Position numbers and translations under genes: made by a program. A stretch of DNA of 64,000 nt from the NCBI GenBank assembly GCA_041658765.1, contig JBAZZO010000006.1, positions 37,947 to 101,946 of the forward strand. The letters are read 5' to 3'. Under the pieces are notes generated by a model that was not told the origin of the DNA, did no database searches, and saw only the letters and a program-made list of their open reading frames with translations. Of the stretch, positions 9,099-37,103 are shown piece after piece (position 1 is the stretch's first letter; every line of letters begins with the position of its first letter). Source of the stretch: Coriobacteriia bacterium. Lineage in GTDB: Bacteria > Actinomycetota > Coriobacteriia > Anaerosomatales > JBAZZO01.

Positions 9099-9181
9099 GG
9101 CTCGCGCGGGTCTTCGTCTCATTCCCGGTCCCTCCGGTGGTCGTCTCGAGGTGTGTACCTCACGCGCGGCACCCGCACTCG

Positions 9182-13270: not shown

Positions 13271-13675
13271 GTGCCGAGGAGGGATGGCGTGGGGACACCG
13301 AGCGAGGACGGGAGCGACGTGTACGACCTCGAGGGCGTTCTGGGACCTTCGGTCATGCAGTTCGTCGACCACCACGTCAGATCACTTCTGACGTGGGATA
13401 TCCTCGTGTTCTTCCACCGCAACCCCGACGCGGTCCTGGATGTGGAGGGTCTGGCGTCGAGGCTCGGTCGCCGCGTGGACGAGCTGGAACCCGAGATAGA
13501 TTCGTTGTGCGCCGGCAGGATACTGCAGAACGCGGGCGGTCTGGTCCGCTACAAGCCGAGCGCCGAGATGCGCGATGCCATCGGGAAGTTCGTCGAGGCG
13601 TGCCAGGAGCGTGGCCGCCGGCTCGCGCTCATCGCGCTCGTCCTGCACAAGATCAATCCGCATCCCGGCCAGTAG
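13271..13675 (+). CDS. hypothetical protein, possibly winged-helix-like
   Basis: 134 aa with coding-like composition. It is convergent with the HD-GYP gene. Start uncertain (GTG 13271). No firm motif. Confidence 0.45.
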   Translation: MPRRDGVGTPSEDGSDVYDLEGVLGPSVMQFVDHHVRSLLTWDILVFFHRNPDAVLDVEGLASRLGRRVDELEPEIDSLCAGRILQNAGGLVRYKPSAEMRDAIGKFVEACQERGRRLALIALVLHKINPHPGQ

Positions 13676-13694: not shown

Positions 13695-15008
13695 TCACAG
13701 GTGGTCCGCGACCGCCGCGTCGAGGCTCTCGGGTTCGACGACCTCGACGATCGTGAGTTCGGACTCGGCGAGGTCGACGTCGACCGGTTCCGCCGCCTGC
13801 AGTCCGTCCGGGCCATAGACGATCCTTACCACGGGCGTGAGAAGGTCCGTGCCCTTGCGGCACACCACGCCGACCGACAGGTCCGAGAGTCGGACCATGC
13901 AACCGATCGGGAAGACGCCGAGCGCACGCACGAATAGTCGCGTGAAGACAGGATCGAGCGCTTTTGACTCCTGAAGAAGCCGGACGACGGCCTTGTCGGG
14001 AGTGCGGCTGTTGCCGGACGCATCCGGTTTCGTCAGCATCTCGTAGCGGTCCGCGATGGCCACCATCCGGCTGAACGGGTGCGGGACGTAGAGGTCGTCC
14101 CTCTCGGGGAATCCGCTGCCGTCCACGCCCATGTGGTGCTCGTACGCGACCAGCATCGGAGCGCGGTCGTCTCCGGGCATCCGCGCGAGGATCTCGGCGC
14201 CGACGACGGGGTGCATCGCGCGCGCAGCCTCCGCCTGCTCGGGATCGGAGACGTCGTACATAGCCTTCCCGATATCGTGGAGGAGCGCCGACAGCCCGAG
14301 CGATTCGAGGCCCTCCTGCGGAAGGCCGAGCTGCGCGCCTAGGGTGAGTGCGTAGATCATGACGTTGATGGAATGGAAGAGACTCTGCTCGCTCGAGGCG
14401 CGAAGGGTCGCCATGCCCAGCACCGCGGCCTCGTCTTCCATCAGCCGGCCGAGGATGGATTCGACCATGCCGCCGGCCTGCACGATATCGGGCTCCCCGC
14501 CCTGCTGGATGCGGGCGGAGACCCGGCGCATGACGCCGACGAGTTGGTGGTAGAGCGCGCGGTCCTCCCTCCGTTTCCGGTCGCGGTCCTCGCGGTCGTC
14601 GTCGGGATCGGCGAGCTCGGTCACTGCGACGTTCGTCGCCCCCCGCGCGAGAAGGGCCGCGTCGAGGTCGGGCTCGAGGTCGGGCCTGAGCGACAGCACC
14701 TCCGCGACCGCGACCGCGTCCGTCTCCGTGAACCCCGGCTGGAACGTGAGGGACACGAGACGGCGCGCCTCGAACGCCTCCGCGAGTGCGCACACGCCCG
14801 GTGCGTCGTCGGCGAGGATGTGGCTGCCCGCGTACAGACCGCCTTCATGGATGTTGAGCGAGAACGGGCCCGATGCCGCGCAAGCGCGTATCGCCCCCAC
14901 GAGCGCTTCGAGCGCTTCCCGGTGACGCGGGTGGGTCGGAGGGTAGAGCTGGAGCGCCTTTCGCGCCCCGGCGATCGCGGCGACGGCTGCAAGTGCGATG
15001 TCGCTCAT
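13695..15008 (-). CDS. HD-GYP domain phosphodiesterase (GFP variant) with uncharacterised N-terminal domain
   Basis: 437 aa. LLHDIGK and HHMGVDGSGFP are present. The N-terminal roughly 130 aa carries LQLYPPTHP. There is a 4-nt overlap with the upstream HEAT gene. Confidence 0.85.
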   Translation of the reverse strand: MSDIALAAVAAIAGARKALQLYPPTHPRHREALEALVGAIRACAASGPFSLNIHEGGLYAGSHILADDAPGVCALAEAFEARRLVSLTFQPGFTETDAVAVAEVLSLRPDLEPDLDAALLARGATNVAVTELADPDDDREDRDRKRREDRALYHQLVGVMRRVSARIQQGGEPDIVQAGGMVESILGRLMEDEAAVLGMATLRASSEQSLFHSINVMIYALTLGAQLGLPQEGLESLGLSALLHDIGKAMYDVSDPEQAEAARAMHPVVGAEILARMPGDDRAPMLVAYEHHMGVDGSGFPERDDLYVPHPFSRMVAIADRYEMLTKPDASGNSRTPDKAVVRLLQESKALDPVFTRLFVRALGVFPIGCMVRLSDLSVGVVCRKGTDLLTPVVRIVYGPDGLQAAEPVDVDLAESELTIVEVVEPESLDAAVADHL

Positions 15009-16996
15009 CGCTCGCCCCCCTTCGCCTGGATCTCGAGCGCCTGTCGCGCGAGTTCCTGTACCTGGGCGAAGTCCCCACGCTTGATCAGCGCGCGCCGCTG
15101 CACGAGCGCGCGCAACGCGTCGGTCGCGGCCGCCTCGGGCACTCGCGCGAGGCAGCCGATCAGCTCGCGCGCGAACCGGAAGTCCTTGCCGTCGACGTCG
15201 ATCTCACCGAGGCGGGCGGCGATGGCCGCGCCGGACCCCGGGATACCGCTGTGAGCGGTCAGGCGGGCTGCCGCGATCGCGACCTCCATGCTCGGGTCCC
15301 GCATGAGCGAGGAGAGGCGCGGGAGCGCCGACGGGCTTCCCGAGGCGGCGAGTCCCTTGGCGGCCTCGCGTCGCGACTGATCGTCGCCTCGCTTCAGCAG
15401 ACAGTCGAGCGCGGCGCTCGCGCGCGGATCGCTCGCACACGCGAGACGTCTCGCGATGGGAGCGACCTGGAACCACTGGGCGTTCGCGGCGAGGGCGGGA
15501 AGCGTGTCCACGAGACGCCGCCCGAGCAACGGCTCGGCGAGCTCGAGGCCGTCGCGACCCGGGAGCGCGAGGGCGGCGGCGGTGAGCGCAGTCTGGGCGA
15601 CCTCGCCGCCGCGACGGAGGATCTGCTGCGCGACAGGCACGAGGCCGGCGTCCTCGTCGACCGCCTCCAGGAGCGCGGTCATCGTGGCCTCGGCGAGAGA
15701 ATGCTCTATGGCGGCCGTGAGGACCGCGGTAAGTTCGGGCCACGGCTGCACCGCGCGTCCTTCGCGCGCCGCGAGCTCGGCGATCACTCGGTCCGCGAGC
15801 TCGAGTTCGCGCTTGCGGACGAGCACGCGGACCATCCCGGCGAGGCTCTCCACGCTCTTGCGGTAGAGAGCGAAATCGCTCTGCTGGTCGAGGAGGGAGA
15901 GCATCGTGGCCACCGCGCGGGCCTCGGTGCGGCCGACGTCGGCGGCGACCTCTTCGCATGCCCGTGCCGCGGCGTCCTCGTCGACCGACGCGACCTCCGC
16001 GACCTTCAGGTAGCCGTGTTCGGCCTCGAGCAGCGGCTGCTCCGCGGCGTTCGAAGAGCGCACCGCGAGCATGTGCCCGAGGAAGTCGACCTCCTTCGGA
16101 GTGTGGCCCGCCGTGGGGAGCAGAGACCTGACCTCGGAGAGGACCGCGTCGAGACGTCCACCGAGCGGGAGGCACGTCAGCGCGTTCGAGAGCGAGAGCA
16201 TGTTCTTGCCGTAGAGGCCACCGGTGACGGCTCCGGCCACCTGGTCCGTCCCGAGGCGGGCGAGGAACTCGCCGACCAGTGGTCGCGCGGCGGTCTCGTC
16301 GATGCCCAACCCGAGTATCGCGTCGCGACCTTCGGGGTCGAGGCCGCCGAAAGCTTCGGCGAGAGAGGCGAGAAGGCGCGAGCGTCCTTCCGCGCCCGAA
16401 GCGTCGGCCAGCTCGAGAAGGCCGTCGGCGAGAGTCGCCTGATCTCCACGTGCCGCCGTGCTCAGCCAGGTCGCGAGTCGCCCGGGATCCGCGGCCAACT
16501 CGGCGAGGAAGTCGTCGGCCATGTCGTCGCCGATCTCAGCGAAACCTGCCTCGACGACGGTCAGGGCCACCTCCATCACGCGCACCCGCTCGACGCCACG
16601 TGCCAGTAGGGCTGCCGAGAGCCCGCCGTCGGCGAGGACCGCCTCTGGTTCGGCGAGGACCGCCTGAAGGAACGAGAGGAGCTCGTCGGTCGAGCACCCG
16701 GGAAGGACGTCGAGTTCCGCGACGCCGTGGCCGCGAAGCGTCTGAGCGAGGTCTCCCACGGCCGGGGAGACGGCCACCGGCAGGCCGGCGGCCGAGAAGC
16801 CGGACCGGGTCACGGCCAGAGACAGGACCGGCCTTCCAGAGAGGCACTCGGCGATGGCGTCTGTCGCCTGCACGAGCGATTCGCGCGGGATGGGGCTCGA
16901 CGGTGGATAGAGGCGGAGGCTGCGCGCCGCGGAGGCCATGGCGCGAACCATCGCGTCCACGCACTGTTCTCCCTGGTTGTCCGGCATCCTCACCAT
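15005..16996 (-). CDS. HEAT-repeat protein sharing the N-terminal domain of its HD-GYP partner
   Basis: The N-terminus carries LRLYPPSSPIP. The C-terminus has HEAT/PBS-lyase-like repeats (...SPSALPRLSSLMRDPSMEVAIAAA...). Start uncertain (ATG 16996 or 16987; the track ORF extends to 17176). Confidence 0.65.
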   Translation of the reverse strand: MVRMPDNQGEQCVDAMVRAMASAARSLRLYPPSSPIPRESLVQATDAIAECLSGRPVLSLAVTRSGFSAAGLPVAVSPAVGDLAQTLRGHGVAELDVLPGCSTDELLSFLQAVLAEPEAVLADGGLSAALLARGVERVRVMEVALTVVEAGFAEIGDDMADDFLAELAADPGRLATWLSTAARGDQATLADGLLELADASGAEGRSRLLASLAEAFGGLDPEGRDAILGLGIDETAARPLVGEFLARLGTDQVAGAVTGGLYGKNMLSLSNALTCLPLGGRLDAVLSEVRSLLPTAGHTPKEVDFLGHMLAVRSSNAAEQPLLEAEHGYLKVAEVASVDEDAAARACEEVAADVGRTEARAVATMLSLLDQQSDFALYRKSVESLAGMVRVLVRKRELELADRVIAELAAREGRAVQPWPELTAVLTAAIEHSLAEATMTALLEAVDEDAGLVPVAQQILRRGGEVAQTALTAAALALPGRDGLELAEPLLGRRLVDTLPALAANAQWFQVAPIARRLACASDPRASAALDCLLKRGDDQSRREAAKGLAASGSPSALPRLSSLMRDPSMEVAIAAARLTAHSGIPGSGAAIAARLGEIDVDGKDFRFARELIGCLARVPEAAATDALRALVQRRALIKRGDFAQVQELARQALEIQAKGGER

Positions 16997-17136
16997 CCTC
17001 GCGACGAGCCTGCGCCGAGCCGACGCTCCGTGCCGCCGGGTAGATTCTCCGGCAACGCCTCGGCCGCGTCCATCATCCACCAGGACCTGCTTGCCCGCGC
17101 TGTTTGCGGCCGGTGACTCCTGGTAATGTATCGTCC

Positions 17137-18435
17137 ATGGGCAGCTACCTGGGCGAGATGTTGCTGATCGTTGCACTCGTCGTGTTGAACGGCTACTTCG
17201 CCGCCGCCGAGATCGCCCTCATCAGCGCCCGGCGCGCGAGCTTGAAGGCCGTCGCCGACGCCGGGTCGGAGGGCGCGAGGGTCGCGCTGCGGCTGACGGA
17301 GGATCCCTCGCGGCTGCTCGCCGCCGTCCAGGTCGGCATCACCTTCGTCGGCTTCCTCGCTTCCGCGACGGCCGCCGTCAGTCTCTCGCAAGGCGTCGCA
17401 GGGTGGCTCCGTTCGCTCGGATCCCCCGGGCTCGCGCGGGTCGCCGGTGGGCTGTCGGTGGTGCTGGTCACCGTCGCGGTCTCGTACCTGACGCTCGTGC
17501 TGGGCGAGCTGACCCCGAAGCGTTTGGGCCTACAGCGGGCGAACGCCGTCGCCGTGAGGGTGGCGAGGCCGATCGCGGTGCTGGCGGTGGTCGCGGCGCC
17601 GCTGACCTGGCTGCTGACCGTCTCGACCGACCTTGTCGGGCGGCTCTTCGGTCTGCCGCCGGGAGCGGGTCGCCCCGGCGTCACCGAGGAGGAGATCAAG
17701 CTCCTCGTGACGGAGCAGGGGACGCTGCTCGACGAAGAGAAGCGGATGATCCACGAGGTGTTCGAGCTGGGGGACACCGTCGCGCGCGAGGTCATGGTCC
17801 CCCGGGTGGACATGGTGCTCCTCGAGGACACGGTCACTCTCGGGGAAGCGCTGGGTGTCTTCACACGATCGGGATATTCGCGCCTTCCGGTCTTCCAGGA
17901 GGACCCCGACACCATCGTCGGCGTCGCGCTGCTGAAGGACCTCGTCGGTCTCGCGGCGTCCGGCCGTCTAGGCGAGCCGATCACGGAGCACATGCGCGGG
18001 CCGATCTTCGTGCCGGAGACGAAGCCGGTGCTGGCGCTCCTCTCGGAGATGCAGCTGACGCGCACGCACCTCGTGGTCGTCGTCGACGAGTACGGGGGCA
18101 CGGCGGGGCTCGTCACGATCGAGGACATCGTCGAGGAGGTCATCGGCGAGATAGCGGACGAGTTCGACAAGGAGCGCCGATACGTCACACAGACCTCCGA
18201 CGGCGTATGGGCGGTGGACGCGCGGTTGAGCGTCGAGGAGGCGCGGGAGACGTTCGGGTGGCCGGTGCCGGAGTCCGACGAGTACGAGACCGTGGCCGGT
18301 TGGGTGCTGATGGAGCTCGGCCACATCCCGGTCCCTGGTGAGACGGTGTGGATGGAGGGTTTCGAGGTCCGGGTGGAGGCGGTCCGCCGCCGGCGCATCG
18401 CGCGCCTCAAGGTCAGCAGGGAGTCCGGCGCCTGA
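17137..18435 (+). CDS. CNNM/CorB-type hemolysin family protein (DUF21-CBS-CorC_HlyC)
   Basis: ATG at 17137 (MGSYLGEMLLIV...). It has a DUF21 TM region, a CBS pair, and the C-terminal CorC_HlyC motif. Confidence 0.85.
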   Translation: MGSYLGEMLLIVALVVLNGYFAAAEIALISARRASLKAVADAGSEGARVALRLTEDPSRLLAAVQVGITFVGFLASATAAVSLSQGVAGWLRSLGSPGLARVAGGLSVVLVTVAVSYLTLVLGELTPKRLGLQRANAVAVRVARPIAVLAVVAAPLTWLLTVSTDLVGRLFGLPPGAGRPGVTEEEIKLLVTEQGTLLDEEKRMIHEVFELGDTVAREVMVPRVDMVLLEDTVTLGEALGVFTRSGYSRLPVFQEDPDTIVGVALLKDLVGLAASGRLGEPITEHMRGPIFVPETKPVLALLSEMQLTRTHLVVVVDEYGGTAGLVTIEDIVEEVIGEIADEFDKERRYVTQTSDGVWAVDARLSVEEARETFGWPVPESDEYETVAGWVLMELGHIPVPGETVWMEGFEVRVEAVRRRRIARLKVSRESGA

Positions 18436-18459
18436 CGCCGGGTGGACGAGGAGGAGCCC

Positions 18460-18897
18460 ATGGGCAAGACGCTCTACAGGAGCCGCGATGACCGCACGAT
18501 CGCGGGAGTCTGCGGCGGGATCGCGGAGTACGCGGGGCTCGACCCCGCGCTGGTGAGGCTCATCGCCGTCGCGCTGGCGGTGATCACGCACGGCGGAGCC
18601 ATCCTCGCCTACGTGATCATGGCGCTCGTCGTGCCGGAGACGCCCCTCGACGGCGTCGCGCAGTCCCCGGAGGCGACGACTCCGCAGCAGGCGGCGTCGA
18701 GTCCCGCACCCGCGCCGGTCGCCCCGGCACGCAGCGGCAGCGGACGCGGAGGAGCGACGTTCGGCCTCGTCCTCGTCGCGGTCGGCGCCGTGCTGCTCGT
18801 CGTCCGGTTCGCGCCGGGGCTCGATCTCGGCAGGCTCTGGCCACTCATCATCGTGGCGGTCGGCGCCGCGATGATCTTCGGCGGACGGAGGGGCTGA
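18460..18897 (+). CDS. PspC domain-containing membrane protein
   Basis: LYRSRDDRTIAGVCGGIAEYAGLDPALVRL is the PspC motif. ATG at 18460 is preceded by AGGAGG. An alternative GTG lies at 18442. Confidence 0.75.
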   Translation: MGKTLYRSRDDRTIAGVCGGIAEYAGLDPALVRLIAVALAVITHGGAILAYVIMALVVPETPLDGVAQSPEATTPQQAASSPAPAPVAPARSGSGRGGATFGLVLVAVGAVLLVVRFAPGLDLGRLWPLIIVAVGAAMIFGGRRG

Positions 18898-18903
18898 ACC
18901 GAC

Positions 18904-19851
18904 ATGGACGTGAAGCGTGCGTTCGAAGGGCTGACCGTCATCGCGGCCGGCTCGATCCTGCTGGGGAACTCGCTCGGCTACCTCCCTTGGTCGGTCTGGG
19001 CGTCGATCCTCTCTCTCTGGCCGCTGCTTTTAATCGCTGCGGGCATCGACATCATCGGGCGCAGTCTCGACAACACGTGGTTGAGGGCGCTGTCGAGCTT
19101 GCTCGTGATCGGCGGGCTCGCGTTCGGGGCGCTCGTCATGACGCCCGGCGAATTCGGCCCATGGGTGATCGCCTCGCCGTTCGCGGAGCGCGGAGAGGCG
19201 AAGGACTTCTCGTTCTCCGAACCGCACGACGCCGCTGTCGAGCGCGGCACGCTGCGCGTGCGTGGAGGCGTGGGCAAGGTCACGTTGAGGGGAGGCTCGG
19301 ACCTGCTCTCCGCCGAAGGGCGGACGCCGTTCGGTCCGTTCGTCTTCGCCGTGGAGAAGGATGGCGCCGATGTCGATGCCGAGGTGGCTCCGGGCAGCGG
19401 TGATGTGACGGGCGACTTCGGCGACGCGGAGACGACGATCTCGCTCGACCGGCAGGTGCTATGGGACCTGCGGCTCGACGCCGGGGTGAGTGACGTGCGC
19501 GCAGACCTCTCCGACGTGCGCCTGAGCGCCGTGGACGTGCGGATGGGAGTGTCGAAGGGCACGCTCACCCTCGGCGCGCCCGGTCAGCCTTGGAGTTCGA
19601 AGCGCGAAGTGGGCACGGCCCGCATCGACACGGGGGTCTCTTCGTTCACGTTCAGGGTTCCGCGCGACGTCGCGGTGCGCGTCGAGTCCCGAAGCGGTAT
19701 CGGCAGCGTGGACGTCGGCGACGGCTTCACGCGCCTTTCCGACTCCGGCGGCCGGCGCGTCTGGGAGACCGACGGTTTCGCCGACGCGGGGCGCGTTTGG
19801 ATCGTGGATCTTCGCAACGGGATAAGCACCGTGCGCATCGAGCGGTACTGA
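18904..19851 (+). CDS. LiaF-like membrane protein with C-terminal toastrack-type beta domain
   Basis: 315 aa. N-terminal TM helices are followed by repetitive beta-strand segments (VRADLSDVRLSAVDVRMGVSKGTLTLG...). Confidence 0.6.
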   Translation: MDVKRAFEGLTVIAAGSILLGNSLGYLPWSVWASILSLWPLLLIAAGIDIIGRSLDNTWLRALSSLLVIGGLAFGALVMTPGEFGPWVIASPFAERGEAKDFSFSEPHDAAVERGTLRVRGGVGKVTLRGGSDLLSAEGRTPFGPFVFAVEKDGADVDAEVAPGSGDVTGDFGDAETTISLDRQVLWDLRLDAGVSDVRADLSDVRLSAVDVRMGVSKGTLTLGAPGQPWSSKREVGTARIDTGVSSFTFRVPRDVAVRVESRSGIGSVDVGDGFTRLSDSGGRRVWETDGFADAGRVWIVDLRNGISTVRIERY

Positions 19852-19862
19852 AGGAGGCGGTC

Positions 19863-20288
19863 ATGGACGAGAAGGGCTCTCATCGAGACGACCGCGGTCC
19901 GGCGCTGATAGGAGGCGTCCTCATCGCGATCGGTCTCTACCTGTTCGTCTCGCGCATGGTCGTCGTGCCCGCGTTCTTCTCGACCGCATGGCGCGGCATG
20001 CGCGACGCCGGATGGCCGCTCGCGCTCATCGTGGCGGGAGCGGCGCTGATCGTGTTCGCGAGGGATCCGCGCTTCACGCCTCCGGCGAAGGGGACGAGGC
20101 TCTACCGCAGCAGGACGCAACGGATGGTCTCGGGCGTCCTGGGAGGGGTCGCCGAGTACCTCGGGGTCGACGTGACGGCGGTCCGTCTCGCGGTGGTCGC
20201 GGCCGCGCTGCTCTTCGGCCCAGGGGAGGCGGTCGTCGGGTACATCGTCGCGACGTTCGTCGTCCCCGAGCCGCCTGGGCAGGCCTGA
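19863..20288 (+). CDS. PspC domain-containing membrane protein (second copy)
   Basis: ATG at 19863 follows GAAGGAGG. LYRSRTQRMVSGVLGGVAEYLGVDVTAVRL is present. Confidence 0.7.
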   Translation: MDEKGSHRDDRGPALIGGVLIAIGLYLFVSRMVVVPAFFSTAWRGMRDAGWPLALIVAGAALIVFARDPRFTPPAKGTRLYRSRTQRMVSGVLGGVAEYLGVDVTAVRLAVVAAALLFGPGEAVVGYIVATFVVPEPPGQA

Positions 20289-20295
20289 CCCGGCG

Positions 20296-21216
20296 ATGGT
20301 CCCTCTCGCGCCAGCCGGCCCGACCCGCCCCGGCGACGTCATCGATGCGCATACGCACCTGTTCTCGTTGCCGCTGCTCCAAGAGTACGTCGACGCGCAC
20401 CCCGAGGAGAACGCGCGCTTCCGGCAGGCGGTGAAGGAGAAGCGCTTCGGGAGGCGCGGAGAGGCGCTGCCCGACCTCGCTCCCGACGCGATGGCCCGCT
20501 TCTACGTCGAGCGCATCGAAGCGGCCGGCGTGGCGAGGGCGGTCGTGATGTCGGTCGTGCCGGATTCGAGCTACACGCGGGACTTCATCACAGCGGCGAA
20601 CGGGCACGTCCACGCGCTGTGCTCCATCGACCCCCGCGAGCCGAGGGCGCCGGCGATGCTCGAGCTGGAGATGGCGGCCGGTTTCCGCGGCGTGAAGCTC
20701 CTGCCGGTGAACCGCAAGTACCGTCTCTCCGACGAGGCATGCCGTCCCTTGTTCGAGAAGGCCTCCGAACTCGGAGCGGCGATCGTCGTCCACTACGGCG
20801 TGACGGTCGACCCCACGGGCGACCTGCGATACGCGGACCCGCTCGACCTCTCGCCGGTCGCCCGCGACTTCCCCGACGTCACGTTCGTGATAGCGCACTT
20901 CGGGGCGGGTTTCTTCACGCAGGTCCTCCAGCTCGCCTACCAGTGCAAGAACGTCTGCGTCGACTCGTCCGGGACGAACAACTGGATCGATTACGATCCG
21001 CACGGCTACACGCTCGCCCAGGTCTTCGAGCGCTCGCTCGTCGCTCTCGGTCCCGAGAGGGTGCTGTTCGGCACCGACGCGGGGACCACCGCACCGTATC
21101 GGGAGTGGATCAAGTTCCAGCAGTTGCGCACCCTCGAGGAGTTGGGGCTCTCCGAGGGCGACCGCGACCTCATCGCGCGCGGCAACGCGGTGCGCATCTT
21201 CCGGCTCGAAGGCTGA
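20296..21216 (+). CDS. amidohydrolase family protein
   Basis: 306 aa. The VIDAHTHLF metal-binding start and the TIM-barrel hydrolase pattern HFGAGF...GTD are seen. Confidence 0.7.
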   Translation: MVPLAPAGPTRPGDVIDAHTHLFSLPLLQEYVDAHPEENARFRQAVKEKRFGRRGEALPDLAPDAMARFYVERIEAAGVARAVVMSVVPDSSYTRDFITAANGHVHALCSIDPREPRAPAMLELEMAAGFRGVKLLPVNRKYRLSDEACRPLFEKASELGAAIVVHYGVTVDPTGDLRYADPLDLSPVARDFPDVTFVIAHFGAGFFTQVLQLAYQCKNVCVDSSGTNNWIDYDPHGYTLAQVFERSLVALGPERVLFGTDAGTTAPYREWIKFQQLRTLEELGLSEGDRDLIARGNAVRIFRLEG

Positions 21217-21965
21217 AGGGGGCGGGACCCGCGATCGACTACGACGAGTTCGTCGACTGGGAGAAGCGCCTCGCTCGTGAGGGGCCGTTCTTCCGCGACG
21301 TCTTCTCGGCCGCGGGCGTGCGACGAGTCGTCGATGTCGGATGCGGGTCGGGCCGCCATGCGCTGCTCTTCGCGTCGTGGGGGCTCGAAGTCGTCGGGGT
21401 CGATCCCGATCCCGGGATGCTCGCCGCCGCCAGGGCGAACGCGGCCGCGGTCGGGCTGGACGTCCCATTCCTCGAAGGCGGGTTCGGAGGGGTCGCGGAT
21501 CTCGTGGGAGAGACCGACGCGCTCACGTGCACGGGGAACGCGCTGCCGCACGTGTCCGGCGTCGAGGGGCTGCGGGAGGCGCTCGCCGACTTCTCCGCCG
21601 CCGTGCGCCCCGGCGGGGTCCTCGTGCTCCACCTTCTCAACCACGATCGCCTCGTCGACGGGCGGGTCCGCAGCGTTCCGCCGGTCGTCAGGGACACGCC
21701 GGAAGGGACGAAGGTCTTCCTACGCGTGCTCGACCATCTGGACGACGGCATCAGGTTCGACTTCCTCACGCTGACACGGGGGCCTTCCGGAACGTGGGCG
21801 CTCGCCTCGCGCAGCTCCGTCCACACCGTGTTGAGGAGCGCGTTCCTCGCCGGCGAGCTCGAGCGGGCGGGCTTCGTGGGCGTCGCCCTCTTCGGCGATC
21901 ATGCGGGTGCTGCTTTCGACCCGATGATGCACGAGTCGGTCATCGTCACCGCGAGACGCGCGTAG
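21213..21965 (+). CDS. class I SAM-dependent methyltransferase (start codon unresolved)
   Basis: VVDVGCGSGRHALLFA...VVGVDPDPGML is the SAM motif I/II. The conserved N-terminus (IDYDEFVDWEKRL) has no ATG/GTG/TTG in frame between 21108 and 21317. CTG at 21213 overlaps the upstream stop. Confidence 0.6.
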   Translation: MKGAGPAIDYDEFVDWEKRLAREGPFFRDVFSAAGVRRVVDVGCGSGRHALLFASWGLEVVGVDPDPGMLAAARANAAAVGLDVPFLEGGFGGVADLVGETDALTCTGNALPHVSGVEGLREALADFSAAVRPGGVLVLHLLNHDRLVDGRVRSVPPVVRDTPEGTKVFLRVLDHLDDGIRFDFLTLTRGPSGTWALASRSSVHTVLRSAFLAGELERAGFVGVALFGDHAGAAFDPMMHESVIVTARRA

Positions 21966-22614
21966 CGAGACGCGGGCCGAGGGAGCAGCGTGTCCCGCGC
22001 GCGGCGTCGCAGGCCGCGACCGGCGGGGTGAGGCCGTCGATCTCGTCGCGCAGCGCCGCGTACAGGTGACACAGCGGGAGGCCGGCGACGTTCTGGTAGC
22101 ACTCGCCGTCGTCGACCGAAGCCAGGTGCCGCTCGATGTTGTAGGCGCCGGCGCATCCCATGAGCTCGCCGTCGGCGACCCACGCGGCGATGTCGGCGTC
22201 CGACAGCGCTCGCATCCGCACGCGGGTCGTGACCGGGAAGGAGCGCCCCGGGCCTTCGCCCGGCGCGAGGAGGGCCACTCCGGTGACGACCTCATGGACG
22301 CGGCCGGAAAGGGCGCGAAGCATCCGGCACGCGTCGTCGAGGTCGCGCGGCTTCCCGAGTACCTCTGTGCCGAGGATGACGAGCGTGTCGCACGCCACGA
22401 CGGTCGCGTCGTCCGCGGACCGCCGCGCCGCGAGGGCCTTCTCGGCGGCGAGCGACACGGCGAGAGCGGGAGGGTCCTTCGCGAGCGGGCCCGCGAGATC
22501 TTCAGGCGTGTCCGTCGCGGTGACCCCGTAGGGGACGCCGAGCCAGGCGAGCAGTCTCCTGCGTCGGGGTGAAGCGGAGGCCAGCAGCAGCGGGGCGTGG
22601 GACGGGCGGTCCAT
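21946..22614 (-). CDS. maf: Maf-like nucleoside-triphosphate pyrophosphatase
   Basis: ATG at 22614. LLLASASPRRRRLL...DTLVILG...LGKP...GAYNIE motifs are present. Its 3' end overlaps the methyltransferase 3' end by 20 nt (convergent). Confidence 0.85.
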   Translation of the reverse strand: MDRPSHAPLLLASASPRRRRLLAWLGVPYGVTATDTPEDLAGPLAKDPPALAVSLAAEKALAARRSADDATVVACDTLVILGTEVLGKPRDLDDACRMLRALSGRVHEVVTGVALLAPGEGPGRSFPVTTRVRMRALSDADIAAWVADGELMGCAGAYNIERHLASVDDGECYQNVAGLPLCHLYAALRDEIDGLTPPVAACDAARGTRCSLGPRLATRVSR

Positions 22615-22707
22615 GGCGGGAATGATACCACCGTGACGCGCGCGGTGCGGGCGAGGGCGTGTGTCACAATGTAGGTGGCTTTCGAGCAGTGGGGAGGAGG
22701 GGATAGG

Positions 22708-24870
22708 GTGACCGCTCGAGCGAGCAGATCGAGCGGCGCGCCGTCGTCCATCCAGCGGTTCGTCAAGCAGCTTCTCGTGACGTGCAAGGCGGTCAAGCTC
22801 TACCCTCTCTCGAGCAACATCCCTCTCGAGAACGCCCAGGCCGCCGCGGTCATGCTCCACGGGATCCTGGAACGCGGGCCCGATGTGAGCTTCGGCGTCA
22901 CCAAGGACGCGCTCGTCTTCGAGGGCGTTCCCGTGTACCCGGGACAGCCGACGTACACGGCCTTCGCGCGCGAGTTCTTCTCCCGCAACCTCGCCGAGTT
23001 CCGCTTCCATTCAGGAGTCACCCCCCAGGAGATCGCGCGCTTCCTAGGCGTGCTCCGATACGCCCCTGACGAGATCGCCGCGGCCGGGGGCTTCGAGACG
23101 ATGCTGTGGGACCTGCAGGTGGACTGCGTCACGGTGAAGGATTTGAGCGCTCGGCTGGTGGACACCGAGATCCCGCAGGCCGGGGAGGGAGCGACACGCT
23201 CCGGCGAGCCTTGGCCTCCGGACGCCGAGCGCATCGACCACGCGCTCTCCGTCGCGTACGTCCGCCGACCCCGCGACCAGCGGCTGCTCGTGCGCGTCAT
23301 CGAGGAACCGGCGGTGGTCGCGGCCTTCTTGCGTGAGTTCCTAACGGGTCGCGGCGAACGGCCGGACGAGGGCGTCGCGGAACGCGTGGCCGCGCTCGCG
23401 CACGTGACGGCGCGCGAGGTCCCCTCCGACCAGCCCTCTCTGCTGCGCTCGCTCGCCGACGCGGTCCTCGACCTTCCTCCCGACGCGCTCCGAGGCGTGC
23501 TCCGCGACGCGGTGCTCCCCGACGCGCGCAACGACGAAGCGCTCGCCGATCTCGTGCGCCAGATCGGCGTGGACGCGGCCCTGCAGGCGATCGTCACCTG
23601 CGGCGTGGCCGAGGATGCGGAGAGTGAGGCGATGTGCCGCGCGATCCGCACACTCGCACTCGTCTCCGAAGTCGAACGTTCCGACGTCGTGGCGCGCACG
23701 CAGGCGTCGCTCGAGGACGCGGGCTGTGACCCCGGCTTCGTCGCGCACGTGCTCGAGGGGGTGGCGCCGACCCGGCTGAAAGTCCGGGAGCGTCTGCGTC
23801 CCGACGAGGAGCGTCCGGAAGACACCGTACTGCGTCTTCTCGACCTGGCGCCGGCGGCCGTGGGCCCGGACGACCCCGGCGACCCCGAGACCGAGGCTCT
23901 TCGCGAAGAGGCTCGCGTCGGGATCACGGACGGGGACATCCTGGGAGCCTTCGTGACGCTCGCGACGATCGAGACCCGGCCGGATGCGTTCTCGACGGTG
24001 ATGTCCACCATCGAGGACAACCTCGGACTCCTGCTAGAGCGCGCCGACCTCGATGTGGCCGCCGACGCGGCGGAGGCGCTCGCGGCCGCGGCGTCCGATC
24101 CCGCGTTCGACGAGCGGCGGAGGACGCGGGTCGAGAACGCGCTCGTGAAGCTCGCGCAGCCGAAGGCGGTGCGGACGATCGCGGACGCGATGCGTGTCTT
24201 CCGGCCCGGCTCCGACGAGTACGCCGCATGCCATCGCCTTCTCGACGTCCTAGGTCGTCATGCGATCTCCCCGTTGCTGGAGGTCCTCGCGGACGAGGAG
24301 GACCGGGCGGCGCGCAAGACCATCGTCGACCTCGTCGCGTCGATGGCGGACGGGTTCGTCGACGATCTCGGCGAGCGAGTCGCCGACCCGCGATGGTACT
24401 TCGTGCGGAACGTCATCGGCATCCTCGCGAAGACCCGCAGCGCCAAGGCGCTGCCACACCTTGGGCGGACGCTGCGCCATGCGGACGCGCGCGTACGCAG
24501 GGAGACGATCCGGGCGCTCGCCGGGATCGACGATCGGCTGGCCGACCAGATGCTCGTCGCGGCGCTGGCTGACGAGGACGCGCAGAACGTGCAGCTGGCT
24601 GCGCGCTACCTGGGCAAGGGCACCGTGCGTGGTGCGACGGCCGCGCTCGCGGAAGTGGCGAAGGGCGAAGGCCGCGGCAGCCGCGACGGGGGACCGCGTA
24701 TCGAGGCGATAGGCGCTCTCGGTTCGATCGGCGATCCCGCGGCGGTGCCCGCGCTCGAGGCGATCCTGCACGCGCGCGCGCTGCGCGGCGCGGCGAAAGC
24801 GCGCGAGCTGCGCGCGGCGGCCGAAGCCGCCCTCGCCGCGTTGCGCGGTCGAGGGGGTGCGCCGCTGTGA
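22708..24870 (+). CDS. HEAT-repeat protein (paralog of 15005-16996)
   Basis: GTG at 22708 follows GGAGGAGG. The N-terminus carries VKLYPLSSNIP. The C-terminus has HEAT repeats (DARVRRETIRALAGIDD..., IEAIGALGSIGDPAAVPALE). Confidence 0.7.
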   Translation: MTARASRSSGAPSSIQRFVKQLLVTCKAVKLYPLSSNIPLENAQAAAVMLHGILERGPDVSFGVTKDALVFEGVPVYPGQPTYTAFAREFFSRNLAEFRFHSGVTPQEIARFLGVLRYAPDEIAAAGGFETMLWDLQVDCVTVKDLSARLVDTEIPQAGEGATRSGEPWPPDAERIDHALSVAYVRRPRDQRLLVRVIEEPAVVAAFLREFLTGRGERPDEGVAERVAALAHVTAREVPSDQPSLLRSLADAVLDLPPDALRGVLRDAVLPDARNDEALADLVRQIGVDAALQAIVTCGVAEDAESEAMCRAIRTLALVSEVERSDVVARTQASLEDAGCDPGFVAHVLEGVAPTRLKVRERLRPDEERPEDTVLRLLDLAPAAVGPDDPGDPETEALREEARVGITDGDILGAFVTLATIETRPDAFSTVMSTIEDNLGLLLERADLDVAADAAEALAAAASDPAFDERRRTRVENALVKLAQPKAVRTIADAMRVFRPGSDEYAACHRLLDVLGRHAISPLLEVLADEEDRAARKTIVDLVASMADGFVDDLGERVADPRWYFVRNVIGILAKTRSAKALPHLGRTLRHADARVRRETIRALAGIDDRLADQMLVAALADEDAQNVQLAARYLGKGTVRGATAALAEVAKGEGRGSRDGGPRIEAIGALGSIGDPAAVPALEAILHARALRGAAKARELRAAAEAALAALRGRGGAPL

Positions 24871-26300
24871 GCGCGGGCGGGATCCGCTCGGGCGACCCCA
24901 CGGACGGAGCTTTCGGCGCCGTCTTCTCAGCCAGGCAGGTCGCTCGCGTGCGCGAGCTTCTCGCGCGCCTCTACAACGCGCGCCGCATGATCCGCTTCTA
25001 CCCGTCGGACCATCCCGCGGTCGGCGAGGCGCTCGCCGGTCTCATGGCCACCATCCGCGCGTTCCACGCCGAGGGGGCCGACGTCCCGCTCACCTTCTTC
25101 GAGGACGAGCTGCTCCTGGGCGATCAGCTCCTTCCGGAAGACAGCGTGATGTTCGACCAGCTCATCCGGGACATGATGAGTATCGGCGCGGGCAGCGTCA
25201 CCTTCCGGGCGGGCCTCGACGAGTCCGAGCTCGAGCGAGCGGTGCGGGTGCTCTCGCTCGAGGTGGGAGAGGTGCTGCGTGCCGGCGGGCTCGAACGTGC
25301 CGTCGCCGTCGCGGACCTTCCTCACGTGACGTTCGCGACGGTGACCATCGTGGAGAAGGAGAGCGAAGAGGAGACGGACGCCGTCCCTGGACGCGGTCCG
25401 GCCCGCCGGGCCTACAGCGCCGCCCTGGACCTCATGCGCGAACTGGAGCGTGTCATCCAGCGGCAGGAATCGCTGGGGGCCGGGCGTATCAGGGGGGTCG
25501 CGCGCAGCCTCGTCGAGAATGTCCTGTCGAACCGGTTCGCGATGCTGGAGCTGTCGGGACTGAAGGACCACGACGAGTACACGTTCTACCACTCGGTGAA
25601 TGTCTCCGTCCTCTCGCTCGCCGTCGGATCGGCGATCACACACGACCTGCGGTTCCTCTCCTCGCTCGGCGTGGGGTCGCTCCTCCACGACATCGGGAAG
25701 ATGACCGTCGACCTCGAGATCCTGAACAAGCCCGGCGCACTCACGTCTCATGAGTGGGCGGACGTGCGACGCCATCCCGTACTCGGCGCCGAGACGGCGG
25801 CCTCCATCCCGGGCCTCGATCGTTCGTCCGTCGTCGTCGCTCTCGAGCACCATATGCGCTTCGACCTCACCGGCTACCCCGCTCGGAAGCCGGAGCGCCG
25901 GCAGCATCTCGCGAGCCGCATCGTGGCGATCGCCGACGCATACGACGCCATGACCTCGCGAAGGGCGTATTCCGCGGCGAGGCTCCAGGACGAGGCGATG
26001 TCGATCCTGCTCCGCAACGCCGGTTCGGCATTCGATCCCGCGCTGGTGCGATCGTTCGTGCGGATCATGGGAATCTACCCGCCGCGGGCCGTCGTGCGCC
26101 TGACGACCGGCGAGACGGCGGTCGTTCTCGCCCCCGACGAGCGTGACGTGGCCCGTCCGACCGTCCGCGTCTTCGCCGACGCGGCGGGAGTCATGATCGA
26201 CCCGTTCGACGTGTCGCTCGCCGACGAGGGATCGGGGCGCTCGGTCGAGCGCTGTCTGGACGAAGATGCCATCAACGTCGATGTCGAAGAGTACCTGTGA
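24867..26300 (+). CDS. HD-GYP domain phosphodiesterase (paralog of 13695-15008)
   Basis: The GTG start overlaps the upstream stop (GTGA). The N-terminus carries IRFYPSDHP. LLHDIGK and HHMRFDLTGYP are present. Confidence 0.85.
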   Translation: MSAGGIRSGDPTDGAFGAVFSARQVARVRELLARLYNARRMIRFYPSDHPAVGEALAGLMATIRAFHAEGADVPLTFFEDELLLGDQLLPEDSVMFDQLIRDMMSIGAGSVTFRAGLDESELERAVRVLSLEVGEVLRAGGLERAVAVADLPHVTFATVTIVEKESEEETDAVPGRGPARRAYSAALDLMRELERVIQRQESLGAGRIRGVARSLVENVLSNRFAMLELSGLKDHDEYTFYHSVNVSVLSLAVGSAITHDLRFLSSLGVGSLLHDIGKMTVDLEILNKPGALTSHEWADVRRHPVLGAETAASIPGLDRSSVVVALEHHMRFDLTGYPARKPERRQHLASRIVAIADAYDAMTSRRAYSAARLQDEAMSILLRNAGSAFDPALVRSFVRIMGIYPPRAVVRLTTGETAVVLAPDERDVARPTVRVFADAAGVMIDPFDVSLADEGSGRSVERCLDEDAINVDVEEYL

Positions 26301-26314
26301 TCCGAGGAGGTCCC

Positions 26315-33451: not shown

Positions 33452-33473
33452 CACGGGCGGAGGCAGACCGGCG

Positions 33474-35417: not shown

Positions 35418-36197
35418 ATGGCCTTCACCATCGCGCTTGCCGGCAAGGGCGGGACCGGCAAGACGACCATGGCGGCGCTGCTCGTGCGCGCCCTGCGCGA
35501 GCTGGGCGCGCGTTCCGTACTCGCGGTGGACGCCGACCCCAATGCGTGTCTTCACGAGGCGCTCGGGCTGGAGGTGGAGCGGTCCGTGGGCGACATAACC
35601 GAGGAGATGCTCCGGCTCGCCGACGACAACCGTCCGGGAGGCATGGACAAGGAGACGTGGCTCGAGCTCAACGTGAACCGCTACGTGGTCGAGTCGACCG
35701 AGTGCGACCTGCTCTCGATGGGCCGTCCCGAAGGCTCGGGATGCTACTGCTACGCGAACAATCTCGTGCGAGCATGCATGGACGACCTGTCGCGCAGTTA
35801 TGAGTACGTGATCATGGACAACGAAGCCGGTCTCGAGCACCTCTCGCGGCGGACCACGCGCAACGTCGACCTGCTGCTCCTCATCGCCGACCCGAGCGTG
35901 CGCGGCATCCGCACCGCCCGTACGCTCGACGAGCTCGCCGGCGAGCTCGGGATAGCCGTTGGCGCGCGCTACCTCGTCGTCGATCGCGCCCAAGAGCCGC
36001 TCGACCCCGTGCTCCTGGAGGCCGTCGCGGCCACTGGCATCCCTCTGCTCGGCACCGTCCCCAGCGATGACGGCGTGACCCGCTGTGATCTGCTCGGCAC
36101 GGGCCTGTTCGACCTGCCCGACGACTCTCCGTCGCTCGCCGCCGTCAAGGAGATGGTCACCCGTGCGGTGCCCGTCCTCTCCGGCGCGAGCGTCTGA
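35418..36197 (+). CDS. cooC: CODH/ACS nickel-insertion accessory ATPase (CooC/AcsF family), copy 1
   Basis: 259 aa. It has the deviant Walker [10 protein letters not shown] and the CxC metal motif GSGCYC. Confidence 0.85.
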
Positions 36198-36235
36198 CCC
36201 CGCGAGTGCCGGTACCGATCAGGGAGGGAACGGAC

Positions 36236-37093: not shown

Positions 37094-37103
37094 GAGGCGT
37101 GAA

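What the first reader, a model, noticed from the sequence alone, without database searches (positions are those of the whole stretch)
13695..26300. Two paralogous HEAT-repeat + HD-GYP gene pairs whose four proteins share one uncharacterised N-terminal domain
Pair 1 is on the minus strand (HEAT 15005-16996, then HD-GYP 13695-15008). Pair 2 is on the plus strand (HEAT 22708-24870, then HD-GYP 24867-26300). Both pairs have the same order and the same 4-nt start/stop overlap. All four products begin with a similar module of roughly 130 aa. The anchor is a (L/F)YPxx(H/S/N)(P/I) motif: LQLYPPTHP, LRLYPPSSPIP, VKLYPLSSNIP and IRFYPSDHP. Each motif is followed by comparable hydrophobic and GG-containing segments. 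The large protein then continues into about 600 aa ending in PBS-lyase-type HEAT repeats. The small protein continues into an HD-GYP phosphodiesterase domain (HHMRFDLTGYP in pair 2, the variant HHMGVDGSGFP in pair 1). A shared N-domain in obligately co-translated partners suggests hetero-oligomerisation of a scaffold with a cyclic-dinucleotide phosphodiesterase. The two pairs are in inverted orientation and bracket an envelope-stress-like block (CorB, PspC, LiaF-like, PspC). I cannot name a characterised system with this architecture.
Basis: partly seen in the sequence, partly recalled or inferred. Interest (0 to 1): 0.75.

Follow-up and report, generated by a model that had tools for sequence, protein, structure and literature searches.

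The report
Unannotated domain linking HEAT and HD-GYP proteins
Two duplicated, tightly coupled gene pairs in an uncultured Coriobacteriia genome each encode a HEAT-repeat protein and an HD-GYP (cyclic-di-GMP-type) phosphodiesterase that start with the same, previously unannotated ~135-residue domain, a domain that elsewhere is also attached to cyclic-di-GMP synthases and sits next to cyclic-di-GMP-binding pilus/secretion ATPases.

Summary
All four ORFs exist at the stated coordinates. Both pairs have 4-nt stop/start overlaps (ATGA, GTGA). The small proteins carry HD-GYP domains and the large ones carry C-terminal HEAT_2 repeats. The four N-termini are homologous: family profile-profile comparisons give 98-99.9% probability over about 130 columns.

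This "X" domain (signature [KR]AxxLYPPxxP) has no Pfam, NCBIfam or PADLOC model. A very confident AlphaFold model (pLDDT 96) matches nothing in the PDB or BFVD. It is nevertheless widespread: 5,620 cluster representatives in 1.84 billion proteins.

The X-HEAT gene is followed directly by an X-HD-GYP gene in every informative locus: 33/33 genome loci, 21/21 metagenome loci and three distant loci. In 41 of 44 junctions the two genes overlap by 1-8 nt.

Elsewhere X occurs in tandem inside GGDEF-STAND-X-X-HEAT proteins, and in X-X proteins directly upstream of MshEN-type ATPases.

The most likely reading is a split sensor/adaptor (X-HEAT) plus phosphodiesterase (X-HD-GYP) module of cyclic-di-GMP signalling, coupled through X. 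Physical X:X pairing is unproven: the only structural test available (a natural X-X tandem) gave pTM 0.52. Verdict: a real, undescribed domain family and architecture within a known kind of signalling.

The parts
13695..15008 (-). HD1: X domain + linker + HD-GYP phosphodiesterase domain + ~75-aa C-terminal extension (437 aa)
   Evidence: ORF. Pfam HD_5 E 2e-11. PDB sequence matches to the HD-GYP enzymes PmGH 4MCW and PA4781 4R8Z. 100% identical to a protein named 'MAG: HD domain-containing phosphohydrolase [Coriobacteriia bacterium]'.
14607..15008 (-). X domain of HD1 (residues 1-134)
   Evidence: Profile match 1-133. AlphaFold2 model pLDDT 96.2, pTM 0.89. hhalign against the other three families 98-99.5%.
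13920..14423 (-). HD-GYP catalytic domain of HD1 (residues ~196-363). Metal ligands H212, H244/D245, H266, H291/H292 and D320 are present. Motif is HHMGVDGSGFP. The KPG(K)L loop is absent.
   Evidence: Alignment to PmGH. Family conservation over 123 members.
15005..16996 (-). HEAT1: X domain + ~380 aa unannotated + C-terminal HEAT repeats (663 aa). Its stop overlaps the HD1 start (ATGA).
16556..16969 (-). X domain of HEAT1 (residues ~10-147 of the 663-aa protein)
   Evidence: Profile match. BLASTP to the HD1 N-terminus, 33% over 131 aa, E 2e-10. hhalign.
15245..15412 (-). HEAT_2 repeat match in HEAT1 (marginal: 28.5 bits against a cut-off of 27.7)
   Evidence: Homology of the whole remainder to HEAT2.
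22708..24870 (+). HEAT2: X domain + unannotated middle + HEAT_2/HEAT_PBS repeats (720 aa). Its stop overlaps the HD2 start (GTGA).
22741..23157 (+). X domain of HEAT2
24361..24768 (+). HEAT_2 / HEAT_PBS repeats of HEAT2
   Evidence: Pfam HEAT_2 E 2.7e-17, four stretches; HEAT_PBS E 9e-4.
24867..26300 (+). HD2: X domain + linker + canonical HD-GYP domain (HHMRFDLTGYP, KPG loop present) + C-terminal extension (477 aa)
24942..25349 (+). X domain of HD2 (residues ~26-161)
25560..26045 (+). HD_5 (HD-GYP) domain of HD2
   Evidence: Pfam HD_5 E 2e-19. PDB sequence matches to PA4781, PmGH and V-cGAP3.
17104..21216 (+). Conserved neighbours, probably context rather than core: CorB-like CNNM-CBS-CorC (17104-18435), PspC (18442-18897), LiaF-like (18904-19851), PspC (19863-20288), Amidohydro_2 (20296-21216). 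They are followed by a methyltransferase (to 21965) and Maf (21946-22614, minus strand).
   Evidence: Pfam. Synteny kept in most related loci but absent from the distant pairs L005 and L047.
26297..29098 (+). UPF0182 membrane protein directly downstream of HD2 (start either overlapping by 4 nt or 15 nt after the HD2 stop). Possible third gene of the pair-2 operon.
   Evidence: It follows the HD2-type gene in 14 of 15 metagenome loci that reach that far, and in L002 and L003.

Best explanation
The window holds two paralogous two-gene modules. Each encodes (i) a soluble alpha-solenoid protein, X-(unannotated ~380 aa)-HEAT, and (ii) an X-HD-GYP phosphodiesterase whose start codon overlaps the stop codon of (i). 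X is an undescribed ~135-aa alpha/beta domain. Its secondary-structure order is alpha1-alpha2-beta-beta-alpha-beta-alpha-alpha-beta, and its signature is [KR]AxxLYPPxxP at the alpha1/alpha2 turn.

The most likely mechanism is this. The HD-GYP enzyme hydrolyses cyclic di-GMP (or pGpG or a related cyclic dinucleotide). Its activity or location is set by the HEAT partner, which acts as the sensor or adaptor part of a split signalling protein. The two X domains form the coupling element, either by pairing with each other or by receiving the same input.

Shown:
- homology of the four X domains;
- strict gene pairing with overlap-type junctions;
- intact HD-GYP metal sites;
- recurrence of X, in tandem, between a GGDEF-STAND unit and HEAT repeats in single-chain proteins, and next to MshEN-type cyclic-di-GMP-binding ATPases.

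Inferred: physical X:X contact, the substrate, the signal, and the direction of control.
For: 1. X homology: E 2e-10 pairwise; all six family pairs 98-99.9%.

2. X folds as an autonomous domain: pLDDT 96.2, pTM 0.89.

3. Pairing. The HEAT1-type gene is followed by an X-HD-GYP gene in 33/33 species-level genome loci that continue past the stop. The HEAT2-type gene is followed by one in 21/21 metagenome loci. The same holds in the distant loci L005, L046 and L047. Of 44 junctions, 29 overlap by 4 nt, 10 by 1 nt and 2 by 8 nt; 3 have gaps of 1-15 nt.

4. Catalytic competence. H, HD, H and HH are invariant in 123 HD1-family members, and D320 is D in 91 and N in 32. HD2 has the canonical GYP and KPG loop. 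PA4781, an active enzyme, also has GFP (alignment).

5. Links to cyclic-di-GMP proteins by fusion and neighbourhood:
- GGDEF-AAA_16-X-X-HEAT_2 proteins of 1000-1456 aa, one named diguanylate cyclase from Planctomycetota.
- The same unit split into three overlapping genes in an Acidobacteriota MAG.
- X-~200 aa-X-HD in one chain (P0136).
- X-X proteins overlapping the start of MshEN+T2SSE ATPases in 3 of 3 loci examined, and P0136 also next to one.

6. The organism has cyclic-di-GMP enzymes: a PAS-GGDEF-EAL protein at 9056-11323.

7. In HD-GYP proteins the N-terminal position is normally occupied by a sensor or regulatory domain (REC, GAF, DUF3391; bioRxiv 10.1101/2021.11.05.467447).
Against: There is no direct evidence of X:X contact. 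An AlphaFold2 model of a natural X-X tandem (17-sequence alignment) has confident domains (pLDDT 88.9) but pTM 0.52, so no confident mutual packing. The heterodimer chimera could not be run.

The HD1 family lacks the KPG(K)L loop, whose lysine binds cyclic di-GMP in PmGH. Both families have HHM in place of HHE. The substrate may therefore differ, at least for HD1.

The conserved residues of X are mostly hydrophobic core plus the YP turn. That fits an interaction surface or a structural turn equally well.

Most loci surveyed come from one lineage (Coriobacteriia / Anaerosomatales-like MAGs), so part of the conservation reflects shared ancestry.
Confidence: 0.5

Rival explanations
1. X is an ordinary small-molecule sensor domain, playing the role that GAF or PAS play elsewhere. 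It works independently in each protein. The two partners share it because they answer the same ligand, not because the domains touch. Any HEAT/HD-GYP contact would go through other surfaces.
For: X sits where sensor domains sit in HD-GYP proteins. It is a compact alpha/beta domain. The tandem X-X model shows no confident packing. X combines with several different output types, as sensor domains do.
Against: No pocket-like set of conserved polar residues was found: only Y22/P23 and hydrophobic or glycine positions are conserved. Tandem duplication and strict co-occurrence of two X-bearing genes are more typical of paired modules. No fold similarity to known sensor domains.
Confidence: 0.3
2. 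X is itself a cyclic-dinucleotide receptor domain. The HEAT protein would then be a cyclic-di-GMP effector, and X in the enzymes would give product or substrate feedback.
For: Every context found is a cyclic-di-GMP context: HD-GYP, GGDEF and MshEN ATPases. A conserved basic residue precedes the LYP motif (K 53%, R 35%).
Against: X does not resemble any known receptor (PilZ, MshEN, I-site and others) in sequence or fold. Too few polar positions are conserved for a nucleotide site. MshEN ATPases already carry their own receptor domain.
Confidence: 0.12
3. The adjacency is inherited synteny without functional coupling. The shared domain only reflects an old domain shuffle.
For: Most surveyed loci belong to one lineage in which a roughly 15-kb neighbourhood is syntenic as a whole.
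Against: Overlapping stop/start codons are kept while the proteins diverge to about 23-35% identity. The pair persists where the rest of the neighbourhood does not (L005, L047). The pair was duplicated as a unit. Two X domains are fused in one chain elsewhere.
Confidence: 0.04

Closest known systems
HD-GYP class II cyclic-di-GMP phosphodiesterases with an N-terminal regulatory domain: RpfG (REC-HD-GYP), the Bd1817 family (DUF3391-HD-GYP), PmGH (GAF-HD-GYP)
   Same: C-terminal HD-GYP catalytic domain with the H...HD...H...HH...D metal ligands and a G[YF]P motif. An N-terminal non-catalytic domain joined through a helical linker.
   Different: The N-terminal domain is none of REC, GAF, DUF3391, DUF3369, PAS or MASE. 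The same domain is present on an obligatorily adjacent HEAT-repeat protein. There is an extra ~75-aa C-terminal extension. HD1 lacks the KPG loop, and both families have HHM instead of HHE.
STAND (AAA_16) nucleotide cyclases: effector-NTPase-repeat sensor proteins, such as the mycobacterial adenylate cyclase-AAA_16-TPR proteins (named from my own knowledge)
   Same: Relatives of the window's HEAT proteins are the C-terminal part of GGDEF-AAA_16-X-X-HEAT chains. In such proteins the repeat region is the sensor. By analogy X-HEAT would be the sensor half.
   Different: In the window there is no NTPase and no GGDEF domain. The effector is a hydrolase on a separate polypeptide, and only one X is present per chain.
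PBS-lyase-type HEAT proteins (CpcE/CpcF, NblB)
   Same: Repeat type: HEAT_2 / HEAT_PBS Pfam matches.
   Different: NCBIfam scores are far below the family cut-offs (16.7 against 330; 12.4 against 300). This is a non-phototrophic Coriobacteriia genome. The N-terminal 500 residues are unrelated.
Local cyclic-di-GMP signalling complexes, such as FimX-PilZ-PilB or enzyme-receptor pairs (named from my own knowledge)
   Same: The idea that an enzyme of cyclic-di-GMP turnover is tethered to a partner protein. X-X proteins and an X-X-HD protein lie directly upstream of MshEN-type ATPases.
   Different: No known docking domain is involved, and no ATPase gene is present in this window.

Membership tests
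HD-GYP phosphodiesterase (Pfam HD_5/HD; PROSITE PS51832 concept) | Profile match above the curated threshold | tested here: met
   HD_5 scores 44.2 bits (HD1) and 70.3 bits (HD2) against a cut-off of 27.2.
HD-GYP phosphodiesterase | Metal-binding residues H, HD, H, HH, D | tested here: met
   HD1: H212, H244/D245, H266, H291/H292, D320. HD2: H242, H274/D275, H303, H328/H329, D357. These are invariant or nearly so in 123 and 24 family members, except D320, which is N in 32 of 123.
HD-GYP phosphodiesterase | HHExh(D/N)GxGYP motif | tested here: inconclusive
   HD2 has HHMRFDLTGYP (GYP kept, E replaced by M). HD1 has HHMGVDGSGFP, and the family shows Y46/F34/W29 at the aromatic position. GFP also occurs in PA4781.
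HD-GYP phosphodiesterase | Cyclic-di-GMP-binding lysine of the KPG(K)L loop (Lys235 of PmGH) | tested here: inconclusive
   Present in HD2 (LNKPGAL; K in 22 of 24). The loop is deleted in HD1.
HD-GYP phosphodiesterase | Hydrolysis of cyclic di-GMP | not testable with these tools
   Needs an enzyme assay.
HEAT-repeat proteins (Pfam HEAT_2 / HEAT_PBS) | Profile match above the curated threshold | tested here: met
   HEAT2 scores 63.3 bits and HEAT1 28.5 bits against a cut-off of 27.7. The two proteins are homologous over 495 columns.
Phycobilin lyase / NblB (CpcE, CpcF, NblB) | NCBIfam equivalog score above the cut-off | tested here: not met
   16.7 against 330, and 12.4 against 300.
Bd1817 family (DUF3391-HD-GYP) | N-terminal DUF3391 domain (four beta-strands followed by two long helices) | tested here: not met
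   No PF11871 hit. X begins with two helices. 3TM8 is not among the Foldseek matches. HD2 matches 3TM8 only from residue 161 onward.
Known cyclic-di-GMP receptor domains (PilZ, MshEN and others in Pfam) | Profile or fold match of X | tested here: not met
   No Pfam hit in 45 X sequences at E up to 1. Best Foldseek match against the PDB has E 1.1 and TM no higher than 0.31.
Anti-phage defence systems (PADLOC) | Match to a defence-system model | tested here: not met
   Only weak, generic HD similarity to Cas3/Cas10 (E at or above 4e-4). Nothing for the HEAT proteins, X-X or the GGDEF-STAND relative.

The most novel reading that the evidence does not exclude
X is a dedicated docking or transmission domain of the cyclic-di-GMP network. 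On this reading, proteins carrying it (HD-GYP hydrolases, GGDEF-STAND synthases, HEAT adaptors, and small X-X proteins beside MshEN pilus/secretion ATPases) assemble through X:X pairing into local synthesis-degradation-receptor complexes. The window would then show a split sensor (X-HEAT) plus enzyme (X-HD-GYP) version, duplicated into two insulated channels.
Probability: 0.3. Interest if true: 0.75.

Novelty: new variant of a known kind. Interest (0 to 1): 0.6.

Why it matters
Most HD-GYP proteins have N-terminal regions with no recognised domain, and how their activity is controlled is largely unknown (stated in bioRxiv 10.1101/2021.11.05.467447).

This finding defines a widespread domain family (5,620 cluster representatives) that has no model in Pfam or NCBIfam and no solved structure. 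The family is tied, by fusion or by adjacent genes, to three classes of cyclic-di-GMP proteins: synthase, hydrolase and receptor ATPase.

It gives a concrete, testable case of a two-protein sensor/enzyme module. The pairs lie in Coriobacteriia (OPB41/Anaerosomatales-like) MAGs, and this order now has cultured members that form pili-like appendages (PMC9686372). I did not check whether those isolates carry the pairs.

The family would also merit a new domain entry in the protein family databases.

Tried and rejected
1. Word-indexed search with the four-sequence X profile found only five fragmentary or frameshifted proteins. The exhaustive search was needed.

2. PDB sequence search with the X profile: nothing below E 0.29.

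3. Foldseek of the X model against the PDB and BFVD: nothing with E below 0.7. The top-ranked GAF/PelD rows have TM about 0.2 and are noise.

4. Looked for a second, degenerate X copy inside HEAT1 with hhalign: none.

5. Genome scan with the mixed X alignment failed because no stretch was conserved enough. It was repeated with the HEAT1-type subset.

7. A natural X-X tandem was modelled instead: pTM 0.52, inconclusive.

8. Asked whether X1 and X2 of the tandems correspond to HEAT-type and HD-type X. This holds for the actinobacterial-like X-X proteins, where X2 scores 78-101 bits with the HD2-type profile. It is not clear for the Planctomycetota-type proteins.

9. PADLOC and NCBIfam: no family for X.

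10. Literature searches for HEAT + HD-GYP, GGDEF + STAND, and novel HD-GYP-associated domains found no description of this domain or pair.

11. Cluster look-ups for taxon names of distant HEAT2-like hits returned no names.

12. Rejected a phycobilin-lyase reading and a defence-system reading.
Full report
**What is in the sequence**

The window is about 70% G+C. It holds four ORFs exactly as described:
- HD1, 13695-15008 (-), 437 aa.
- HEAT1, 15005-16996 (-), 663 aa.
- HEAT2, 22708-24870 (+), 720 aa.
- HD2, 24867-26300 (+), 477 aa.

The junctions read ...GAGCGATGAGC... and ...CCGCTGTGAGC.... The downstream start codon (ATG or GTG) therefore overlaps the upstream TGA by 4 nt, and each is preceded by a G-rich Shine-Dalgarno. 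The HEAT1 start at 16996 and the HEAT2 start at 22708 are supported by homologue lengths of 650-670 aa, by an independent gene call of 720 aa, and by upstream Shine-Dalgarno sequences.

Pfam finds HD_5/HD in both small proteins. It finds HEAT_2 (plus HEAT_PBS) at the C-terminal end of both large ones. The HEAT1 match is only just above threshold, at 28.5 bits against a cut-off of 27.7. Nothing in Pfam or NCBIfam covers the first ~200 residues of the small proteins or the first ~520 of the large ones.

**The shared N-terminal module is real**

BLASTP aligns the N-termini of HD1 and HEAT1 at 33% identity over 131 residues (E 2e-10), and HD1 with HEAT2 at E 0.003. The other cross-type pairs are invisible to BLASTP. 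A four-way alignment is convincing over about 135 columns.

I then built separate alignments of this region for each of the four families. Members were chosen by similarity outside the region. hhalign on all six pairs gave 98.1-99.9% probability, with E from 9e-14 to 8e-36, over 128-138 columns. I call the module X.

HEAT1 and HEAT2 are also homologous over the remaining 495 columns (99.7%). HD1 and HD2 are homologous over their full length. The X domains of the two HEAT proteins are each other's closest relatives. So a whole pair was duplicated.

**What X is**

An AlphaFold2 model of HD1 residues 1-134, built from a 45-sequence alignment, is very confident: pLDDT 96.2, pTM 0.89. The secondary-structure order is:
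- helix 2-21, helix 27-43;
- strands 49-54 and 57-60;
- helix 72-81, strand 84-89;
- helices 95-106 and 115-121;
- strand 127-131.

Foldseek finds nothing significant. The best PDB match has E 1.1 and TM no higher than 0.31. The best BFVD match has E 0.77. No sequence-based search found a match either:
- a PDB sequence search with the X profile;
- Pfam scans of 45 X sequences;
- NCBIfam;
- PADLOC.

X is not DUF3391, the N-terminal domain of the Bd1817 family of HD-GYP proteins. DUF3391 begins with four strands, and its structure 3TM8 is not among the fold matches.

An exhaustive HMMER search of 1.84 billion cluster representatives with the four-sequence profile returned 5,620 proteins at E no higher than 1e-3, and 1,202 at E no higher than 1e-10.

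Over 329 X domains from the retrieved proteins, only a few positions are highly conserved. These are Y22 (98%), P23 (92%) and L21, which lie at the end of helix 1 and in the turn before helix 2. Before them lies a basic residue (K or R, 88%). The other conserved positions are hydrophobic or glycine. The signature is [KR]AxxLYPPxxP.

**Conservation of the pair**

A scan of one genome per species, using the HEAT1-type motif, returned 38 loci. All are MAGs labelled Coriobacteriia, Anaerosomatales or Actinomycetota. The window's HD1 is 100% identical to a protein of a 'Coriobacteriia bacterium' MAG.

In all 33 loci where sequence continues past the HEAT1-type stop, the next ORF on the same strand begins with X. 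The remaining five loci are uninformative:
- three are cut by contig ends;
- two are long-read assemblies broken by frameshifts.

A metagenome scan with a HEAT2-type motif gave 35 loci. In 21 of the 21 that continue past the stop, an X ORF follows. In 18 of these the ORF reaches far enough to show the HD-GYP domain.

More distant relatives keep the pair as well:
- L005, with the HEAT protein at 34% identity;
- L047, with the HEAT protein at 23% identity to HEAT2 and an 8-nt overlap;
- L046, where the downstream gene is cut by the contig end but starts with X.

Of 44 junctions, 29 overlap by 4 nt, 10 by 1 nt and 2 by 8 nt. Three have gaps of 1, 2 and 15 nt. A few of these are the same genome seen twice.

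**Are the enzymes active?**

Alignment with the solved HD-GYP enzymes PmGH (4MCW), PA4781 (4R8Z) and V-cGAP3 (5Z7C) shows that all the metal ligands are present. In 123 HD1-family members, H212, H244/D245, H266 and H291/H292 are invariant, and D320 is D in 91 and N in 32. In 24 HD2-family members the equivalent residues are conserved.

HD2 has a canonical GYP and the KPG loop. The lysine of that loop binds cyclic di-GMP in PmGH.

HD1 differs in two ways. It has GFP, with the family showing Y, F or W at that position; PA4781 also has GFP. It also lacks the KPG loop altogether. Both families have HHM where the consensus is HHE.

Both are therefore probably metal-dependent hydrolases. HD2 is close to canonical. 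HD1's substrate is less certain.

**Other architectures with X**

Among the best 150 hits, ten proteins of 1000-1456 aa carry two X copies in tandem. All six of these that I scanned with Pfam begin with GGDEF and AAA_16 (a STAND-type NTPase). In five of the six the tandem is followed by HEAT_2 repeats. One is annotated as a Planctomycetota diguanylate cyclase. Their C-terminal ~290 residues are homologous to those of HEAT1 and HEAT2.

An Acidobacteriota MAG has the same unit as three overlapping genes: GGDEF | AAA_16 | X-X-HEAT.

P0136 is X-~200 aa-X-HD in one chain.

Small X-X proteins of about 300 aa are complete genes. In all three loci I could fetch (L048, L050, L051), they overlap or directly precede an MshEN+T2SSE ATPase. 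Its N-terminus matches the MshEN cyclic-di-GMP-binding motif (RIGDMLLEAGVITQEQLIRALDRQ). In two of the loci a Wzy_C gene follows. P0136 is also followed by such an ATPase.

So X is found with a synthase, a hydrolase and a receptor of cyclic di-GMP. The window itself also encodes a PAS-GGDEF-EAL protein.

**Test of X:X pairing**

A natural X-X tandem (P0085 segment, 17-row alignment) was accepted. Both domains are confident (pLDDT 88.9) and have the same secondary-structure order as the single-domain model. However, pTM is 0.52 and the linker is disordered. The model therefore gives no confident relative placement.

This neither supports nor excludes pairing. The alignment is shallow, and a tandem is only a proxy for the two-chain case.

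In the actinobacterial-like X-X proteins, X2 scores clearly best with the HD2-type profile (78-101 bits), while X1 scores about equally with the HEAT1-type and HD2-type profiles. This hints that such tandems may join the two flavours in one chain, but the evidence is weak. The pattern is not clear in the Planctomycetota-type proteins.

**Neighbourhood**

Between the pairs lie, all on the + strand:
- CorB-like CNNM-CBS-CorC;
- PspC;
- a LiaF-like protein;
- a second PspC;
- Amidohydro_2;
- a methyltransferase.

Maf lies on the - strand. The order is kept in most related loci. A few lack PspC and LiaF. The distant pairs L005 and L047 lack the block. I therefore treat it as lineage synteny rather than part of the core.

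UPF0182, a large membrane protein, follows the HD2-type gene on the same strand in 14 of 15 loci that reach that far. In the window it either overlaps HD2 by 4 nt or starts 15 nt after its stop. It may be co-transcribed with pair 2.

**Interpretation**

I favour a split sensor/adaptor-plus-enzyme module of cyclic-di-GMP signalling (confidence about 0.5), for three reasons:
- In single-chain STAND relatives, X-X-...-HEAT occupies the position of the sensor arm behind the NTPase.
- In HD-GYP proteins, the N-terminal position is the regulatory one.
- In this lineage, the two halves are separate but translationally coupled genes, each keeping one X.

The main rival (about 0.3) is that X is an independent ligand sensor shared by both proteins. 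A receptor role for X (about 0.12) and mere synteny (about 0.04) are less likely.

**Novelty**

The Galperin and Chou census of HD-GYP architectures lists REC, GAF, DUF3391, DUF3369, PAS and several membrane domains. It notes that most HD-GYP proteins have unrecognised N-terminal regions. It does not mention HEAT. I found no paper describing this domain or this pair.

This is a new domain family and a new two-gene architecture inside a well-known kind of signalling system.

Noticed in passing
window 51602-54319 (+), in-frame stop at 52676-52678: The formate dehydrogenase alpha subunit is split into two same-frame ORFs by a single stop codon inside the motif NVDHCARL*HSSTVAGL. This is the position of the catalytic selenocysteine, so it is very probably a Sec (UGA) codon and not a pseudogene.
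   Followed up: partly
window 32973-51100 (+): A complete-looking Wood-Ljungdahl / CODH-ACS cluster: RACo, CooC-like ATPase, FolD, CdhD, CooS-type CODH, ACS beta, CdhD+FeS, HdrA/MvhD-like protein, MetV-like protein, MTHFR, pterin-binding methyltransferase and NuoF-like protein. This fits an anaerobic OPB41/Anaerosomatales-like Coriobacteriia genome.
   Followed up: partly
window 13271-13675 (+): A small ORF (up to 134 aa; 118 aa in relatives), convergent with HD1. It has no Pfam match but is conserved next to the HD1-type gene in 37 of the 44 loci that were in hand at that point.
   Followed up: partly
window 26297-29098 (+): A UPF0182 membrane protein follows HD2 at a 4-nt overlap or a 15-nt gap. 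It follows the HD2-type gene in 14 of 15 metagenome loci, so it may be a third gene of the pair-2 operon.
   Followed up: partly
window 13698-13919 (-) and about 26046-26297 (+): [quoted passage not shown] It has no Pfam match and its fold was not examined.
   Followed up: no
L048 6001-8623; L051 462-3036; L050 819-2061; L049 1351-4764: Small X-X proteins (294-313 aa) and an X-mid-X-HD protein lie directly upstream of MshEN+T2SSE (MshE/PilB-like) ATPases. In two loci the genes overlap by 11 nt and a Wzy_C gene follows. This looks like a separate conserved operon that uses the same domain.
   Followed up: partly
L044 6431-10655: An Acidobacteriota MAG has GGDEF (147 aa), AAA_16 (375 aa) and X-X-HEAT (884 aa) as three abutting or overlapping genes. 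In Planctomycetota the same parts form one 1400-aa protein. This is either a true split or assembly frameshifts.
   Followed up: no
window 9056-11323 (+): A PAS-PAS-GGDEF-EAL protein lies 2.4 kb from pair 1. It shows that the organism has cyclic-di-GMP turnover enzymes besides the HD-GYP pairs.
   Followed up: partly
window 13920-14423 (-), HD1 family: The HD1 family as a whole lacks the KPG(K)L substrate loop. Its last metal-ligand aspartate is replaced by asparagine in 32 of 123 members. The GYP tyrosine varies among Y, F and W. HD1 may therefore have drifted towards another substrate or a partly regulatory role.
   Followed up: partly
window 15413-16555 (-) and 23158-24360 (+): The roughly 380-400-aa middle regions of HEAT1 and HEAT2 have no family match. 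They are homologous to each other, but the match to the GGDEF-STAND relatives covers only the last ~290 residues. Their structure was not modelled.
   Followed up: no
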